Shown here piece after piece: positions 238-29,808 of a stretch of 37,786 nt of DNA (position 1 is the stretch's first letter; every line of letters starts with the position of its first letter). The notes under the pieces are model-generated. The model did no database searches and was not told where the DNA came from. It saw only the letters and a program-made list of their open reading frames with translations. Both the position numbers and the translations under genes were made by a program. Location of the stretch: NCBI GenBank assembly GCA_004322365.1, contig SCTS01000007.1:84266-122051 (forward strand), given 5' to 3'. The DNA comes from Patescibacteria group bacterium. Lineage in GTDB: Bacteria > Patescibacteriota > Minisyncoccia > Phycocordibacterales > Phycocordibacteraceae.

Positions 238-294
238 CAGGATTCAAGATTCAGGTTTTAAAAGCTGACAGCTGGAACCTGACACCTAAAAGCT
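238..294. repeat. Inverted heptamer-repeat element, empty site
   Basis: CAGGATT CAAGATT CAGGTTT - TAAA - AGCTGAC AGCTGGA ACCTGAC ACCTAAA AGCT, between divergent rpsT and ruvA. Confidence 0.8.
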
Positions 295-16734: not shown

Positions 16735-16807
16735 AAGGTGCTAAGTGCTAGGTGCTAGGTGCTAGCTTTTAAAGCTAGAAGCTAGTCCCTAGAACCTATA
16801 AACTAAC
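16734..16807. repeat. Inverted heptamer-repeat element, cleanest empty site
   Basis: TAAGGTG CTAAGTG CTAGGTG CTAGGTG CTAGCTT - TTAA - AGCTAGA AGCTAGT CCCTAGA ACCTATA AACTAAC; fills the whole intergenic gap. Confidence 0.92.
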
Positions 16808-24663: not shown

Positions 24664-24876
24664 AAGCTTTCAGCTTTCAGCTTTCAGCTTTCAGGGGGAC
24701 ATTGTCAGAGGGTAAGGTTGGCCTCCGGTCTCTAGCCTTTAGGCGACACCTCTGATGCTTCATCACCCTGTCGAGGGTTCGGATCCGGAGAGATCACAGG
24801 AAGCGGAGCTAGGAGTTAGGGGGGTTGGAAGTTAGAAGCTGAAACCCGACAGCTAGAAGTTTGAAGCCAAAAGCTA
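24664..24876. repeat. Inverted heptamer-repeat element with ~120-nt structured insert
   Basis: Left arm AAGCTTT (CAGCTTT)x3; right arm AGTTAGA AGCTGAA ACCCGAC AGCTAGA AGTTTGA AGCCAAA AGCTA, ending in the virB4 stop. Confidence 0.8.
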
Positions 24877-26685
24877 TTCCGATGCTTCCCTCTTTTGTTG
24901 GGCTATTGCAAGAAGTTGAGATGGGTCTGAAGTAATTATTTGGTCTTCAGTGTAGGATGCAATTATTTTTATGGCGACATGTTTGAGCCCCGCGAAGAAA
25001 ATTCCCTCACCCACATCAGATTCAAGCAGAAGATATTTTTCCTCCTCCGTGAGGTTGAATGTTTTTTGTACGGCATCTATGGATGTTGGTGACTGCTTCA
25101 AAAGAATTTGGATTGATGAGTTAGTGAGCATTGGCAGTCCGTAGGGTGACTTTAGGAAGTCCTCAACATCTTGAGTGATGGTAGCGAGACCAAGATAGTA
25201 TTTTCTTCCGCGCTTTGCCATTCCGTAAAGGAATGCAGCGGTATCTTCTGATTTCATCATCCACCATGCCTCATCAATAACAAGAAGTCGTTTGCGCAAA
25301 TCTTTTCTCACCGCATTCCAAATGAAGTGCGTAATGATATACATCGCAATTGTCTTCAACTCATCTTCCATGTTTCGAACTGAGAACGCGACGAACTTTT
25401 TGTTGATGTCGACATTGGTTGGTCGGTTGATAAAGCCAGACCATGTGCCCTTGGTGTATTTTGTAATTCTCTGAACTAAAGACTCGCTTCCTTCCATACC
25501 GGCAAGCACTAGCTCGAAGTCAGAAAGAAGTGGTGGTTCCATGTTGGTGAAATCGTTCGCACCAGTGATGTCTTTGAGTGCGTATGTTTCCGTAATGGCG
25601 CGGTCAATAATCGCATCCTCTTCAGGAGTGAGCCCCCCAAGCATTAAGCGAAATAGTCCCACAAGGTTGATGATGTTTGAGCGGAGAATATCAGCTGGCG
25701 ACTCGTCTTCACGAGCTACTGGCAAGTCGAAAGGATTGATGCGGTTTTCTGATGAGAGTGAAATATTGAAAAATCTTCCACCTACAGCATTTGCAAGATA
25801 TTCGTATTCACTCTCAGGGTCGATGACGATAACCTCTGTGTCGAACATCAGCGTTCGCAAGATTTCAAGTTTTGTACCATATGATTTTCCTGAACCCGAT
25901 TTTGCAAAGGTGACTGAGTTGTAGTTTTCAAGAGAAAATCGATCAAAGAGAATTAATGACGAGTTGTGTCTGTTTATACCGTAGAGAATTCCTTTGTCGC
26001 TCGTAAGGTCGAAGGATATAAATGGGAAGAAGCTTGAGAGTGGAGCAGAATTCATTTTCGAGTTCACCGCTAACTGGTCATCCCCTATTGGTATGACACT
26101 CTTGAATCCTTGTTCTTGCTGGAATAGCGCAGGCTTTATGTAAACGAGTTTTGAGTCAAGGATTGAGCGCATCTCTGCTTCGGTTTTGTCCAATTCTTCT
26201 TGATCTGTGCCGTAAATTGAGATATAGAGACCTACATCAAATACTCGCTCTTGCGCCTGCTGGAGTTGATTTCTAAGTTGCTCAATGTCTTGGTAGGCCG
26301 TGTCGAGCATAGGGTCTCGTACCATGCCTTTTTCTTGACGGGTCATGATTTGGCTCTGCACCTCGGCAACTTTTTTCTGAAACTTGCGGAGAATTGCTGC
26401 TGTGTCTACAGGATGAATGAATATGGAAATATCAAGCACGCGGTCACGGTTAATAATTGGAGCAAACCAAGTGCCTGACAGAAAGCGCGGATATGAAATT
26501 ACATAGAAGGTGCGCACCAGCTTATCGCCCAAGTTCATTTCACGCGGAGTAATCTTTAACGCTGATGGAGCGATGATGTCTGCAAAATCGAGTTTTGCTG
26601 CTTCATAAATATCCTTAGGTAAAAAAGGAGTCAGCGTCTCCTTCTTTTTTCCAGCGTTACCTAAAAATGTATCGAAGATTCCCAT
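24874..26685 (-). CDS. virB4: VirB4/TraC-like type IV secretion ATPase
   Basis: YGIN..LILFDRF, AKSGSGKS (Walker A), VIDPESEY, INPFD, VIDEAW (Walker B), KRGRKY, ITQDVEDF. Confidence 0.88.
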   Translation of the reverse strand: MGIFDTFLGNAGKKKETLTPFLPKDIYEAAKLDFADIIAPSALKITPREMNLGDKLVRTFYVISYPRFLSGTWFAPIINRDRVLDISIFIHPVDTAAILRKFQKKVAEVQSQIMTRQEKGMVRDPMLDTAYQDIEQLRNQLQQAQERVFDVGLYISIYGTDQEELDKTEAEMRSILDSKLVYIKPALFQQEQGFKSVIPIGDDQLAVNSKMNSAPLSSFFPFISFDLTSDKGILYGINRHNSSLILFDRFSLENYNSVTFAKSGSGKSYGTKLEILRTLMFDTEVIVIDPESEYEYLANAVGGRFFNISLSSENRINPFDLPVAREDESPADILRSNIINLVGLFRLMLGGLTPEEDAIIDRAITETYALKDITGANDFTNMEPPLLSDFELVLAGMEGSESLVQRITKYTKGTWSGFINRPTNVDINKKFVAFSVRNMEDELKTIAMYIITHFIWNAVRKDLRKRLLVIDEAWWMMKSEDTAAFLYGMAKRGRKYYLGLATITQDVEDFLKSPYGLPMLTNSSIQILLKQSPTSIDAVQKTFNLTEEEKYLLLESDVGEGIFFAGLKHVAIKIIASYTEDQIITSDPSQLLAIAQQKREASE

Positions 26686-26687
26686 GG

Positions 26688-27359
26688 TTATATAAGTGGC
26701 GCGTTAGCCTGATCCATAACGATTGGTTTTTCCAACTCCCCAGGGTTGAACTCTTTGTAGAGAAGCTCTATCACCTCTTCAGTACCAAGAGGAACGGTTC
26801 GTACCCCTGTGCGTGCCAACCCTTGTTCCACCACCCCCATTCTCTGCTCCAACTGTGTACGGTGTTCCTCAAAACCAATAGCATTCTCATCTCTCGATGA
26901 CAGATTTGTCTTCCCAAACACTTTATTTTGCACTGCTTTTTTTATATCAAGAGCTGGTGGAGAGTATGGAACAACAATAAAGAAATGTTTACTCATAATG
27001 TTCGCTCTCTCAATGAATGTTTTGATGAACTCTATATATTCGCGCACCTGTATTTTCATCAACTCCTCCGTCTGTGCCTTTAGTCGTTCTTCCAGAAGTG
27101 CTATGTAGGGTCTGATATCGAGTTTTCGCGATTGTATGAAAAACTGAACACTGAAATCAAGCGAATTCATAAAGCTCTGAAATTGCGAGAGTATGGCGTT
27201 TTGCTCGTCCTCTGACTTCAGTGCAAAGTTAATACTTGAAGCAAGCATGACCCCGACGAGTGTGCCATTTTTCATTACCATCACACCGCCACGAACTTCC
27301 TTCACTGGAACGAAGTCCTGAGCCGCTTTTGTTTTTGTTGTTTTTTGGTCGCCAGACAT
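26688..27359 (-). CDS. T4SS-associated protein (VirB4/TraC N-terminal-like) upstream of virB4
   Basis: SSINFALKSEDEQNAI..FMNSLDFSVQ..SRKLDI..Y; 2-bp gap to virB4. Confidence 0.7.
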   Translation of the reverse strand: MSGDQKTTKTKAAQDFVPVKEVRGGVMVMKNGTLVGVMLASSINFALKSEDEQNAILSQFQSFMNSLDFSVQFFIQSRKLDIRPYIALLEERLKAQTEELMKIQVREYIEFIKTFIERANIMSKHFFIVVPYSPPALDIKKAVQNKVFGKTNLSSRDENAIGFEEHRTQLEQRMGVVEQGLARTGVRTVPLGTEEVIELLYKEFNPGELEKPIVMDQANAPLI

Positions 27360-27367
27360 ATTGTTGG

Positions 27368-27807
27368 GAGGGTTCTAGCTTCTAGGTGCTAGGTTTTAGC
27401 TTTAAGACTCGCAATGATAGCAACGAGCATCTTCGAAACTTCCTGTAGCGCCGCTACTATTTCATTATAGTCGACTTTTTCTCCGTACTCTAAGCGTTTT
27501 GCTATTTCAAGCTGTGTTTCTAGTTCAGATACAGAACCTAAAGCAATGTGCAGGAATTGGGCGAAGTCTTTTCTGGTACTTCTCGATCTGCCCTCCGCTA
27601 TGTTGGAAGAAATTGAAACCGCCGCTCGTCTCATTTGATTAATGAGACCGAATTTCTCTTCAGACGGAAACTTAGAAGTAAGTTTGTAAATTATAATCGC
27701 TAAATCTATCCCCTTCTGCCACACAATAAGGTCTTTATGAGAATAGATTTTAGTCTTATTTGTTTGCATTTTAAAAGCTGGCACCTAAAACCTAGTCCCT
27801 AGCACCT
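27368..27807. mobile_element. Putative heptamer-arm cassette carrying a four-helix-bundle gene
   Basis: Left arm CTAGCTT CTAGGTG CTAGGTT TTAGC-TTTAA (27375-27405); right side TTTAAA-AGCTGGC ACCTAAA ACCTAGT CCCTAGC ACCT (27770-27807); mobility is inferred. Confidence 0.5.
27389..27769 (-). CDS. Four helix bundle protein (TIGR02436 / 23S rRNA IVS protein-like)
   Basis: HKDLIVWQK, FPSEEKFGLINQMRRAAVSISSNIAEG, FLHIALGSVSELETQL; ATG at 27769. Confidence 0.93.
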   Translation of the reverse strand: MQTNKTKIYSHKDLIVWQKGIDLAIIIYKLTSKFPSEEKFGLINQMRRAAVSISSNIAEGRSRSTRKDFAQFLHIALGSVSELETQLEIAKRLEYGEKVDYNEIVAALQEVSKMLVAIIASLKAKT

Positions 27808-27809
27808 TC

Positions 27810-28247
27810 TTATCTCTGTTTCTTGTCCGAATACATACTCTCTTTTATGTCCAAGCTCCACGCTAAGTCTTTAATCTTGTTTGAAGTGGCCGAAGGTGCG
27901 TATTTTGCCGGATCTTCAGCGGGTGTTTGCCCAGGAAGAGTAATTTCGTCAGGGAGGACAGTCTTTGATTGTTTCTTCTCCCAAATGTAGAGTTTTGTGC
28001 GAAAAAGGTATTGGAAGCCAGATTCAAGTGCATTTATGAGAGGGCGGTCGTTGATTTTGTAGAATGCGAGTGCAGCACCTAAAAGTGCAATTGGCCCACC
28101 AATAACTATTGCAAGCCAGTGCGGCATAACAAACCACAGCGCTACGAGGAATCCTCCTCCTCCGACGAGGTATATAAATTGTACGGCAGTTAGAGGACCG
28201 AAAATTTTGTCTTCAACTTCAACGAACTGAGGAACTTGGAATTGCAT
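27810..28247 (-). CDS. prgI: PrgI family protein (VirB3-like)
   Basis: MQFQVPQFVEVEDKIFGPLT..QF, two TM helices, YIW. Confidence 0.88.
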   Translation of the reverse strand: MQFQVPQFVEVEDKIFGPLTAVQFIYLVGGGGFLVALWFVMPHWLAIVIGGPIALLGAALAFYKINDRPLINALESGFQYLFRTKLYIWEKKQSKTVLPDEITLPGQTPAEDPAKYAPSATSNKIKDLAWSLDIKESMYSDKKQR

Positions 28248-28252
28248 ACTAG

Positions 28253-28292
28253 TAAGGGTATAGCGTTTAGTGGTTAGCGTCTAGGGTTTTAA
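28253..28292. repeat. Variant heptamer arm followed by TTTAA
   Basis: TAAGGGT ATAGCGT TTAGTGG TTAGCGT CTAGGGT TTTAA; weak partner arm TCCCTAA ACGCTAA ACCCCAC at 29011-29031. Confidence 0.65.
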
Positions 28293-28325
28293 GGAGAATA
28301 AAAAACTTCCTTAATTTAATGTATG

Positions 28326-28348
28326 TGTGGGATTTCGTAAATCCCACA
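28326..28348. repeat. REP-like hairpin (copy 1 of 3)
   Basis: TGTGGGATTT CGT AAATCCCACA; related copies at 29174-29198 and 29808-29828. Confidence 0.75.
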
Positions 28349-28403
28349 TGCATGCGTCAAGAGTCCCCTATTTGAATTGTTTCTATATATGGAAATTTTT
28401 ACC

Positions 28404-28541: not shown

Positions 28542-28955
28542 TTAGAAGGTTATTCTGATGTGCGCCATTTCCCCACGTGAGATCCACCCACCCCCGTTGG
28601 GACCCTTTTCGCTACGTTCTCCAGGGAAGAGTGAAAACTTAAATCCGTTCTCAGTACAAAATTTTTTAATTTTTTTAAATGCTTGGAATTTCTCCATGTC
28701 CACTAATTCCAAATGTCCACTAAGGTTTTGATTAATATGTGTTCCTCCTCTGCTAGCTGCTTCTAGTATCTTTTGGTGTAGATTATGATAAAAGACCTCT
28801 AGTGAGTCTGCGATCTCAGGGTATTTTTTTTCCTGTACCTGCATACGTTCTTCTTCTTTTTCTTTCTCTTCTTTCTCAACACGAAGTCTTATTCTATGTT
28901 CCTCAATCATTCGCTGTAGCGACAAACCTTGTGGGGATTGGGAAGATTTTTCCAT
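28542..28955 (-). CDS. Hypothetical protein, paralog of 29248-29763
   Basis: ATG at 28955, 8 nt after a -10-like element; shared sequence blocks with the neighbour. Confidence 0.7.
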   Translation of the reverse strand: MEKSSQSPQGLSLQRMIEEHRIRLRVEKEEKEKEEERMQVQEKKYPEIADSLEVFYHNLHQKILEAASRGGTHINQNLSGHLELVDMEKFQAFKKIKKFCTENGFKFSLFPGERSEKGPNGGGWISRGEMAHIRITF

Positions 28956-29000
28956 ACCCAAGCACCCTACGCTGAATATTCTTTTTGTCAAACAGCAATG
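28948..29000 (-). promoter_or_regulatory. Duplicated promoter/start block, copy 1
   Basis: TTGACA-16 nt-TAGGGT-GCTTGGGT-ATGGAAAA. Confidence 0.7.
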
Positions 29001-29247: not shown

Positions 29248-29763
29248 TTAGAAAAGTATGCTGATAATGTGATTTGTAGGTGGGGTTCGCCATGACGGAA
29301 ATTCCCAGTCAAGATATTCTGTTCTAGAGTTGTCGGAATAGTGCAATTTTAGTCCATACTTGCTACAAAATGTTTTGAGGTCTTTAAATGCCTTCAGGTT
29401 CATCAGTGTATCTTTAGGTAAGTCCCATATGGAAACCTCGGCCATAACTGAATGGTGGCCTTTTTCGGTAGCCTCTAATATATTTTCATATGCGCTTGCT
29501 AAGAAATCTTCTAAGGTGTTAGAGGCGTTTAAACATGCTTCTGCTACTCGACGTTGTTCCTCCTCTTCCTTCTTGCGCTTTTCCTTCCGGTTTTCTTCAT
29601 CTCTTCCCGCACCCCTCGCATCTCTTGTTTTGTCGTAAATGGTTCTACGTTCGCTTATCATTTCTCGTAGCGACCCATCAGGTGGAGATTCATTCCATTC
29701 CGTATTTTTTTGTCCCGAAGCTTTTCTTCCCCAGAACTCGTCCCAAAATGATACTTTTTCCAT
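29248..29763 (-). CDS. Hypothetical protein, paralog of 28542-28955
   Basis: ATG at 29763; SLREMISERR, ILEATEKG and KAFKDLKTFC match blocks in the neighbour. Confidence 0.7.
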   Translation of the reverse strand: MEKVSFWDEFWGRKASGQKNTEWNESPPDGSLREMISERRTIYDKTRDARGAGRDEENRKEKRKKEEEEQRRVAEACLNASNTLEDFLASAYENILEATEKGHHSVMAEVSIWDLPKDTLMNLKAFKDLKTFCSKYGLKLHYSDNSRTEYLDWEFPSWRTPPTNHIISILF

Positions 29764-29808
29764 ACCCAAGCACTCTACGTTGAGTGTTTGCTTTGTCAAA
29801 CAATAATG
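29756..29808 (-). promoter_or_regulatory. Duplicated promoter/start block, copy 2
   Basis: TTGACA-16 nt-TAGAGT-GCTTGGGT-ATGGAAAA. Confidence 0.7.

What the first reader, a model, noticed from the sequence alone, without database searches (positions are those of the whole stretch)
27368..27807. Four-helix-bundle gene inserted at the centre of a heptamer element, splitting prgI from its partner
Seen: the gene fills the space between inverted arms exactly. Its ATG abuts the right-hand TTTTAAAA core and its last codons run through the left-hand TTTAA into the arm. Removing the gene plus one TTTAA gives ...TAGC-TTTAA-AAGCTG..., close to the empty sites at 16763 (TAGCTTTTAAAGCTA) and 252 (CAGGTTTTAAAAGCTG). 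Established: this family is structurally related to the DGR accessory protein Avd and has no known catalytic role. Inference: a minimal mobile unit of arms plus one gene with a TTTAA target duplication; the protein may bind the repeats or their RNA. This is the best candidate for an undescribed system in the window.
Basis: partly seen in the sequence, partly recalled or inferred. Interest (0 to 1): 0.88.

Follow-up and report, generated by a model that had tools for sequence, protein, structure and literature searches.

The report
Four-helix-bundle gene inside heptamer-repeat hairpin

Summary
A 126-aa PF05635/TIGR02436 gene (27389-27769, minus strand) fills the space between two inverted 35-nt arms. 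Each arm is five tandem heptamers. The unit lies between the prgI stop codon and the start of a TrsD-like gene.

It is not a chance flanking. In relatives the gene is present, absent, at three different sites of the same operon, or replaced by a 62%-identical copy with different arms while the flanks stay about 97% identical. Arm complementarity of at least 19/24 occurs in 58/108 family genes (this genus plus 79 loci from many phyla). It occurs in 7/540 mismatched arm pairs, 11/819 other ORFs of this genome and 2/127 neighbour ORFs.

In this genome 69/121 arrays of the arm type have exactly five units. Genomes with the gene carry such arrays far more often than genomes without it (28/52 vs 5/69).

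The TTTAA "target duplication" is not supported. The build is not wholly undescribed: it matches the S23p-encoding 23S rRNA intervening sequence, heptamers included. Here it lies in an mRNA operon, and 0/108 loci held rRNA-like DNA.

Likely working, inferred: the arms pair, possibly for RNase III processing, and the homopentameric protein binds five-heptamer arrays.

The parts
27773..27807 (-). Upstream arm as read on the gene's sense strand. It is five tandem heptamers (AGGTGCT AGGGACT AGGTTTT AGGTGCC AGCTTTT). It begins 2 nt after the prgI stop and ends 3 nt before the ATG.
   Evidence: Sequence read; inverted repeat. It is the only G-rich class-1 array in a 5' leader in the whole genome (1 vs 40 C-rich).
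27389..27769 (-). [quoted passage not shown]
   Evidence: Similar to PDB 2gsc (E 1.9e-25) and 2rld, each deposited with 5 chains. dN/dS is about 0.07-0.15 between orthologous cassettes.
27370..27404 (-). Downstream arm, five heptamers complementary to the upstream arm (sense strand: TAAAGCT AAAACCT AGCACCT AGAAGCT AGAACCC). It overlaps the last five codons and the stop codon, and ends 10 nt before the trsD-like ATG.
   Evidence: The RNA minimum-free-energy and centroid folds pair it with the upstream arm around the ORF.
27810..28247 (-). prgI (VirB3-like) gene, upstream neighbour in the type IV secretion operon.
   Evidence: PF12666, 38.2 bits against a cut-off of 27.
26688..27359 (-). TrsD-like / VirB4 N-terminal-domain gene, downstream neighbour. 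It abuts prgI in relatives that lack the cassette.
   Evidence: NCBIfam hits below cut-off to TrsD and to the N-terminal parts of VirB4 families. Gaps of 10-25 nt in L012, L013, L015, L016 and L024.
24874..26685 (-). VirB4-type ATPase (C-terminal part).
   Evidence: conju_CD1110, 375 bits against a cut-off of 325.
16736..16797 (.). Compact gene-less hairpin of the same unit class (G-rich arm, TTTTAAA loop, C-rich arm), lying between convergent genes.
   Evidence: It is one of 17 compact hairpins in the genome, all in the order G-rich arm then C-rich arm.
238..294 (.). Second compact hairpin. Its C-rich arm has five units and its G-rich arm is degenerate.
28255..28288 (-). Heptamer array of a second class (AACNCTA type on the sense strand), directly before the prgI ATG.

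Best explanation
The gene and its two arms are one insertion cassette lodged between prgI and the trsD-like gene of a type IV secretion operon.

It is a member of a class that I find across many bacterial phyla. In this class a PF05635 gene lies in the loop of a long hairpin whose arms are inverted arrays of about five tandem heptamers, with the G-rich arm on the 5' side. The S23p-encoding intervening sequence of 23S rRNA has the same build, but here the cassette lies in an mRNA operon.

Shown: the anatomy, its variable presence, position and replacement among relatives, arm complementarity that is specific to each copy, purifying selection on the protein, and the five-unit length of the arrays.

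Inferred: the cassette is transcribed with the operon. The arms pair and enclose the ORF and its start codon. RNase III, which this genome encodes, cuts the stem as it does in rRNA intervening sequences, so the insertion is tolerated. The protein, a homopentamer in solved relatives, binds five-heptamer arrays. These would be its own arms (autoregulation) and about 100 dispersed arrays of the same type that mark gene ends and starts in this genome.
For: Family and anatomy.

Variability: in 30 loci of the operon (own locus included) the gene lies between prgI and trsD in 7, upstream of prgI in 4 and after trsD in 1. It is not in the locus in 18. Between G006 and G000 the flanks are about 97% identical, but the gene is 62% identical with arms of another unit class. 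Identity breaks at the prgI stop and the trsD ATG.

Copy-specific arms: at least 19/24 Watson-Crick pairs in 58/108 own arm pairs against 7/540 mismatched pairs. The same threshold is met by 17/29 family genes against 11/819 ORFs of G000, and by 41/79 family genes against 2/127 neighbour ORFs in loci from many phyla.

Polarity: the G-rich arm is 5' in 48, the C-rich arm in 9 and one is tied, of 58. All 17 compact hairpins run G-rich arm then C-rich arm, and none the other way.

Fold: the arms pair in both the minimum-free-energy and the centroid structure.

Enzymes and selection: RNase III is present. dN/dS is 0.07-0.15.

Five units: 69/121 arrays have exactly five. Exact runs number 27 at five units and 2 at six. 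Arms of family genes drop between five and six units, 15 to 2 upstream and 22 to 3 downstream.

Pentamer: 2gsc and 2rld have 5 chains each, and a homopentamer is stated in PMC4990558.

Co-occurrence: at least five TAG-period-7 arrays in 28/52 genomes with the gene against 5/69 without it. This is order level, mostly one genome per genus, Fisher p = 1.5e-8. In the genus the figures are 12/18 against 1/15.

Precedent: the Coxiella intervening sequence has a 28-bp inverted-repeat stem cut by RNase III and tandem heptamers before the S23p ATG.
Against: There are no RNA data for this organism, so processing and expression are not shown. Mismatches in the arms show no G.U excess over A.C (73 vs 70). 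Selection on sense-RNA pairing would predict such an excess, so the complementarity may arise at the DNA level. The arms of this copy are only 72% complementary in register, and the whole-cassette fold has z = -2.4 only.

Binding of the protein to the repeats is untested. The five-unit/pentamer match could be a coincidence, or could simply reflect a preferred stem length.

Some genomes have arrays without a detected gene: G029, G037, G055 and G046. About half of the family genes fall below the 19/24 threshold. Some arms have period 8 or more than six units.

Related genomes are not independent, so the p values overstate. The array census used only fixed TAG or AGST patterns, not a general period-7 detector.
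Confidence: 0.6

Rival explanations
1. DNA-level mobile element. The arms are terminal inverted repeats of a MITE-like unit that inserts into hairpin loops or intergenic junctions. It would be moved by an enzyme encoded elsewhere or by host recombination, and the protein would be an accessory. RNA pairing would be irrelevant.
For: The cassette is present or absent and occupies three sites in one operon. At least four cassette lineages occur at the same prgI|trsD junction. One protein clade shares an arm class but sits at two sites. There is no G.U excess in the arm mismatches. Arrays and gene co-occur across genomes. 17 compact gene-less hairpins resemble deletion derivatives.
Against: There is no target-site duplication. 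The TTTAA is part of the palindromic repeat end and is absent in G014, G006 and G042. The cassette carries no transposase or recombinase. No RT was found in the genome. The RAYT-like gene is flanked by different palindromes. The cassette is stable between G000 and G017 over dS of about 0.6, like its flanks. Replacement could equally be homologous recombination through prgI and trsD. The strong orientation of solo arrays relative to genes (40 C-rich vs 1 G-rich in 5' leaders) is not expected of a merely selfish repeat.
Confidence: 0.25
2. Not a mobile or processed unit at all. The protein is a resident regulator, and the arrays are its operators on DNA. Its own gene is simply bracketed by two operators for autoregulation. 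Differences among relatives reflect ordinary gene gain, loss and allelic recombination.
For: Arrays have a fixed five-unit length and a strict placement at gene starts and ends. Gene and arrays co-occur. Purifying selection acts on the protein. The Geobacter genome paper read paired sites of 'five tandem heptanucleotide repeats' as binding sites of an unidentified global regulator (PMC2700814, passages).
Against: Unit sequences differ widely between paralogous cassettes in one genome. A single regulator with a regulon would not predict that. Family members lie inside rRNA genes as excised intervening sequences and in CPR rRNA insertions. The cassette is swapped as a block with its arms.
Confidence: 0.15
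3. Chance. This genome has heptamer arrays in many intergenic spacers, and two of them happen to flank this gene.
For: Three other single genes of G000 are also bracketed G-rich arm ... C-rich arm: a SpoU methylase and two unknown proteins. G000 has about 105-121 arrays of this class.
Against: The same bracket surrounds family members at unrelated sites and in many phyla, with copy-specific units. In G000 this is the only gene with a G-rich array in its 5' leader.
Confidence: 0.03

Closest known systems
S23p-encoding intervening sequence (IVS) of 23S rRNA (Coxiella burnetii; Leptospira, Xanthomonas and Brucella as cited there)
   Same: The ORF belongs to the same protein family. It is enclosed by terminal inverted repeats that form a long stem. 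Tandem heptameric repeats of variable number lie just before the ATG, and the Shine-Dalgarno sequence is poor or absent. The element is regarded as selfish and horizontally acquired (PMC4990558, passages).
   Different: Here the element lies between two protein-coding genes of a type IV secretion operon, not in helix 45 or 25 of 23S rRNA. 0/108 family loci examined held rRNA-like DNA. Both arms are whole five-unit heptamer arrays. The protein is under purifying selection, whereas the Coxiella ORF is reported as decaying. RNase III excision is shown there and only inferred here.
Avd, accessory protein of diversity-generating retroelements
   Same: Related four-helix-bundle fold and sequence family. 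PHROG 'Avd protein of DGR' matches at E 3.9e-9, and the NCBIfam Avd model scores 31 bits.
   Different: The score is below the Avd cut-off of 80 bits. No reverse transcriptase was found in the genome. There is no template/variable repeat pair. The flanks are heptamer arrays instead.
Dispersed heptamer repeats of bacterial genomes
   Same: Four reports resemble the arrays here. Geobacter metallireducens has paired sites of 'five tandem heptanucleotide repeats' (PMC2700814). Xanthomonas has GGGAATC arrays, of which 70-75 are convergent pairs, and Nostoc has GGGGAYT (PMC4692102). Beggiatoaceae have TAACTGA repeats ending just before start codons (PMC4679880). All are intergenic, have period 7, often occur as inverted pairs and are oriented relative to genes.
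   Different: None of the passages I saw links the repeats to PF05635 genes. They were read as G-quadruplex elements, IHF/HU sites or post-transcriptional signals.
TRAP binding to spaced (G/U)AG triplets in trp leader RNA (recalled from memory, not from any call)
   Same: It works alike only by analogy: a ring-shaped homo-oligomer whose subunit number matches the number of short, regularly spaced repeats in a leader next to a start codon.
   Different: The fold is unrelated, the ring has 11 subunits and the triplets are spaced by 2-3 nt. No binding data exist for PF05635.
REP/REPIN elements with RAYT transposases
   Same: Dispersed intergenic hairpins, and a single-copy gene flanked by them in inverted orientation.
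   Different: The RAYT-like gene of this genome (G000:C5:216040-216732) is flanked by a different 24-nt palindrome, not by heptamers. PF05635 has no known catalytic role.

Membership tests
PF05635 / TIGR02436 four-helix-bundle protein (23S rRNA IVS protein, S23p) | Profile score above the curated cut-off over the full domain | tested here: met
   PF05635 scores 140.9 bits (cut-off 33.8) over positions 1-105 of 106. TIGR02436 scores 136.1 bits (cut-off 24). NF008911 scores 145.8 bits (cut-off 137).
PF05635 / TIGR02436 four-helix-bundle protein (23S rRNA IVS protein, S23p) | Four-helix bundle that assembles into a homopentameric ring | not tested
   Only sequence similarity was tested: 2gsc (E 1.9e-25) and 2rld, each with 5 chains. 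A pentamer is stated in PMC4990558. No fold or assembly was predicted here.
S23p-type intervening sequence of 23S rRNA | S23p ORF enclosed by terminal inverted repeats that can form a stem | tested here: met
S23p-type intervening sequence of 23S rRNA | Tandem heptamers directly upstream of the ATG (Coxiella) | tested here: met
   Five heptamers end 3 nt before the ATG. Compare the passages.
S23p-type intervening sequence of 23S rRNA | Located inside a 23S rRNA helix | tested here: not met
   It lies between prgI and a trsD-like gene. The 23S gene is at G000:C6:17654-21016, about 90 kb away.
S23p-type intervening sequence of 23S rRNA | Excised from the transcript by RNase III | not testable with these tools
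   An RNase III gene is present. No RNA run was listed.
DGR Avd | Avd model above cut-off, and an adjacent reverse transcriptase with template/variable repeats | tested here: not met
   The Avd model scores 31.3 bits against a cut-off of 80. PF00078 has no match in the genome, which is 100% complete by marker genes.
Transposon / MITE with terminal inverted repeats | Direct target-site duplication outside the inverted repeats | tested here: not met
   There is no direct repeat at the outer ends. The inner TTTAA is part of the palindrome and is not kept in G014, G006 or G042.
Transposon / MITE with terminal inverted repeats | A transposase, in cis or in trans, tied to the repeats | tested here: inconclusive
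   None lies in the cassette. Of two Y1_Tnp hits in the genome, the stronger one has different palindromes at its flanks. Other transposase families were not searched.

The most novel reading that the evidence does not exclude
PF05635 proteins and heptamer repeats form one system found across bacteria. The homopentamer would recognise arrays of five tandem heptamers. Each gene travels in the loop of a hairpin made of two such arrays. Gene-less arrays and hairpins of the same unit spread through the host genome, where they mark gene ends (G-rich) and gene starts (C-rich). This would give a function to one of the large uncharacterised bacterial protein families. It would explain the long-noted excess of heptamer simple repeats in bacterial genomes. 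It would also make the 23S rRNA intervening sequences a special case of a general cassette.
Probability: 0.35. Interest if true: 0.9.

Novelty: new variant of a known kind. Interest (0 to 1): 0.8.

Why it matters
PF05635/TIGR02436 is a widespread family with solved structures and no known function. Heptamer repeats are over-represented in bacterial genomes without an accepted explanation (stated in PMC4692102). Four groups described such repeats in single organisms, and none of the passages I saw names a protein partner.

The window gives a clean, minimal example that links the two. The comparative data here show that the link holds across phyla, is specific to each copy, and has a fixed size of five units. 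That makes a simple binding experiment, and an RNase III mapping experiment, directly informative.

It also shows that the family's name is misleading. None of the 108 loci examined lies in an rRNA gene.

Tried and rejected
TTTAA target duplication: rejected. TTTAAA is palindromic and forms the inner end of the inverted repeat. Orthologous or neighbouring cassettes lack it: G014 has ...CTTTCAA before the ATG, and G006 and G042 have other units.

RAYT link: G000 has two Y1_Tnp hits. The stronger one is flanked by its own 24-nt palindromes, not by heptamers. The script printout for the weaker hit (C7) showed no clean frame, and I did not pursue it.

RT / DGR link: PF00078 was not found in G000.

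Second PF05635 match in G000 (C5:87722-87901, 22 bits, below cut-off): it overlaps a 195-aa ORF that looks to me like a peptidyl-tRNA hydrolase. That reading is mine, from the ORF translation, and no family search was run. I take the match as spurious.

G.U versus A.C test for RNA-level selection: 73 vs 70, no signal.

Stop codons in all three frames as the reason for period 7: true of only 25/58 upstream arms, so it is not a general rule.

Rfam: no match in 27200-28400 at E up to 1. PADLOC: no match. Promoter/terminator scan: counts near the shuffle expectation.

Expression: no RNA holder was listed.

Contigs of four DNA runs were laid on 26900-28300. Joints across the gene had sides of 30 nt or less. 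They most likely come from other hairpins or relatives. One run had no cover over the gene while the flanks were covered. None of this is used as evidence.

Ralph & McClelland 1993 is not held. It and Lin et al. 2006 are known to me only as cited in PMC4990558.

Papers: I saw passages only, by 'find', of PMC4990558, 10.1101/2024.02.27.582315, PMC10053308, PMC4692102, PMC4679880, PMC2700814, PMC8700078 and PMC8491059.

The statement that the general gene-repeat link is not in print rests on searches only. Family-database comments (TIGRFAMs, InterPro) and the closed supplements of the Geobacter and Xanthomonas papers could hold it.

Rows dropped before counts:
- 1 of 80 broad loci, for a short flank.
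- 1 genus protein under 100 aa, left out of the tree.
- 16 arrays of ambiguous strand type, left out of the orientation counts.
- 9 of the 38 genus matches had no locus or were not analysed.

The ORF set of G000 is my own greedy longest-ORF call, not an annotation.

Full report
**What is there.** The finding's coordinates hold a 126-aa gene on the minus strand (27389-27769; ATG at 27767-27769). It scores 140.9 bits on PF05635 (cut-off 33.8) and 136.1 bits on TIGR02436 (cut-off 24). It stays below the cut-offs of the Avd models. Its closest solved relatives are 2gsc (XCC0516, E 1.9e-25) and 2rld, each deposited with five chains.

The upstream neighbour is prgI (27810-28247). The downstream neighbours are a TrsD-like / VirB4 N-domain gene (26688-27359) and the VirB4 ATPase part (24874-26685).

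The repeat finder reports inverted arms at 27368-27403 and 27774-27809: 36 nt at 72% complementarity, and 83% over 24 nt. Read, each arm is five heptamers, at 27773-27807 and 27370-27404. The upstream arm starts 2 nt after the prgI stop and ends 3 nt before the ATG. The downstream arm contains the last five codons and the stop codon, and ends 10 nt before the trsD ATG. The two 'empty' hairpins it named exist.

**The arrays are a genome-wide feature.** The window lies in a 787-kb, 8-contig genome.
- Period-7 arrays number 48, against 0-3 for periods 5, 6 and 8-11.
- The unit AG[GC]TNNN occurs in runs of at least three at 63 + 58 places, against 0-1 at other periods.
- The array length is fixed. 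Exact runs number 20, 13, 27, 2 and 1 for three to seven units. With tolerant extension, 69 of 121 arrays have exactly five units.
- Seventeen compact hairpins all run G-rich arm, loop, C-rich arm. None runs the other way.
- Next to genes, C-rich arrays lie in 5' leaders 40 times and G-rich arrays once. G-rich arrays lie after stop codons 34 times and C-rich arrays 17 times.
- The single G-rich leader belongs to the four-helix-bundle gene itself. This gene is therefore placed 'inside-out' compared with every other gene, which is what lying in the loop of a hairpin means.

**Is the bracket specific to this gene?** G000 has only this one family member. A second, weak match overlaps another ORF. 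I therefore used relatives.

In 30 loci of the operon (own locus included) the gene lies between prgI and trsD in 7, upstream of prgI in 4 and after trsD in 1. It is not in the locus in 18. In five loci prgI and trsD are only 10-25 nt apart with no heptamers. One distant relative (L025) has an empty heptamer hairpin in that gap.

In G006 the flanking proteins are about 97% identical to G000, but the gene is 62% identical and its arms are of another unit class. In the DNA alignment, identity collapses exactly between the prgI stop and the trsD ATG.

The genus holds the family in 18 of 33 genomes, with up to five matches per genome, at many sites. Nearly every copy has a repeat array before its ATG and the complementary array at or after its stop. 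The units differ from copy to copy.

Counts of flank complementarity of at least 19/24 Watson-Crick pairs without gaps:
- 17/29 family genes against 11/819 other ORFs of G000 (Mann-Whitney p = 5e-15).
- 41/79 family genes against 2/127 neighbour ORFs in 79 loci fetched from the genome collection with the protein alignment. These come from Acidobacteriota, Bacteroidota, Proteobacteria, Verrucomicrobia, Nitrospirota, Elusimicrobiota, Gemmatimonadota, Firmicutes and other Patescibacteria.
- 58/108 own arm pairs against 7/540 mismatched pairs. The arms therefore covary copy by copy.

The G-rich arm is on the 5' side in 48, the C-rich arm in 9 and one is tied, of 58. Period 7 dominates. Some copies have period 8 or longer arrays. 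None of the 108 loci holds rRNA-like DNA.

**Gene and arrays go together.** Across 121 genomes of the order (116 genera), at least five arrays of five TAGs at period 7 occur in 28/52 genomes with a family member over cut-off, and in 5/69 of the rest (Fisher p = 1.5e-8). In the genus the figures are 12/18 against 1/15. Related genomes are not independent, and only TAG-type units were counted.

Where listed places allow a look, the cassette arms are of the genome's dominant dispersed unit. Examples are G000 itself, G070:C45 and G119:C1.

A protein clade (L035, L038, L042) shares its arm class but occupies two different sites.

**The protein is functional and the cassette is not hyper-mobile.** dN/dS is 0.07-0.15 in five orthologous pairs. 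Between G000 and G017 the gene's dS (0.66) is like that of prgI (0.63) and trsD (0.33). In that lineage the cassette was therefore inherited together with its flanks.

**Mechanism.** The following is shown: the anatomy, the block-wise variability, the copy-specific complementarity, the polarity, the five-unit length and the co-occurrence.

The following is inferred:
(a) The arms pair. Both the minimum-free-energy and the centroid RNA structures of the cassette pair them around the ORF (-120 kcal/mol, z = -2.4).
(b) RNase III, which the genome encodes, would cut such a stem. This is shown for the Coxiella 23S intervening sequence, which has a 28-bp inverted-repeat stem, an S23p ORF and tandem heptamers before the ATG (passages of PMC4990558).
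(c) The homopentameric protein binds arrays of five heptamers. The start codon abuts such an array, which would allow autoregulation.

Against an RNA-only reading, arm mismatches show no G.U excess (73 vs 70 A.C). A DNA-level origin of the complementarity therefore stays open. No reverse transcriptase was found. A RAYT-like gene has its own, different palindromes. No target duplication is seen.

**Comparison with what is known.** The build is that of the S23p-bearing intervening sequence of 23S rRNA, so the system is not wholly undescribed. Family ORFs are also reported in rRNA insertions of CPR bacteria (10.1101/2024.02.27.582315, passages).

What I did not find in print:
- that family members outside rRNA carry the same hairpin in many phyla;
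- that the arms are arrays of about five heptamers;
- that dispersed heptamer arrays track the gene.

Isolated reports fit the picture. Geobacter metallireducens has paired sites of 'five tandem heptanucleotide repeats' ascribed to an unidentified regulator (PMC2700814). Xanthomonas has convergent GGGAATC pairs and Nostoc has GGGGAYT (PMC4692102). Beggiatoaceae have TAACTGA repeats before start codons (PMC4679880). The supplements of these papers were closed, and I could not read the family-database comments.

**Verdict.** I file it as a new variant of a known kind of element. The bolder reading, a protein-repeat system spread across bacteria, is given separately at about one in three.

Noticed in passing
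window 24874-27359 (-): VirB4 of this type IV secretion operon is encoded as two ORFs in different frames: a 223-aa TrsD-like N-terminal part and a 603-aa ATPase part. The 223-aa protein was found in 37 of 41 related genomes (G000 included), mostly as an open frame of similar length.
   Followed up: partly
G000:C5:216040-216732 (outside the window): A 230-aa Y1 transposase-like (RAYT-like) gene is flanked on both sides by the palindrome TGTGCAACCTCCGGAGGTTGCACA. This is a second, unrelated repeat system in the genome.
   Followed up: partly
G000:C8:53694-54275 (outside the window): A 193-aa gene is flanked on both sides by palindromes of about 40 nt, with 24/24 complementarity between the flanks.
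   Followed up: no
window 28255-28288 and many places in G000: A second class of heptamer arrays (TAG[CGT]G[TG]T, read as AACNCTA on the sense strand) lies immediately before start codons, here before prgI.
   Followed up: partly
L013, L015, L016, L024, L026-L032 (prgI|trsD junction of relatives): Where the cassette is absent, a TA(C/T)AAT box lies about 7-12 nt before the trsD ATG. This suggests a very short leader or a leaderless start.
   Followed up: no
G020:C105:19375-19513: One array of about 20 heptamers shifts from AGGTAGT to AGGTGCT units, far longer than the usual five.
   Followed up: no
G000:C6:17654-21016 (outside the window): The 23S rRNA gene spans 3363 nt for a 2925-position model, so about 440 nt of extra sequence is present. 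The genome's only PF05635 gene is not there.
   Followed up: no
window 28542-28991 and 29248-29799 (-): Two neighbouring ORFs with TTG starts share an N-terminus (MTK...CLGMEK) and a glutamate/lysine-rich middle. They are possibly paralogues.
   Followed up: no
G000:C5:33232-34113, 229580-230447, 239565-240831: Three other single genes are also bracketed by a G-rich array on one side and a C-rich array on the other: a 209-aa protein and a 417-aa protein without Pfam hits, and a SpoU methylase.
   Followed up: partly
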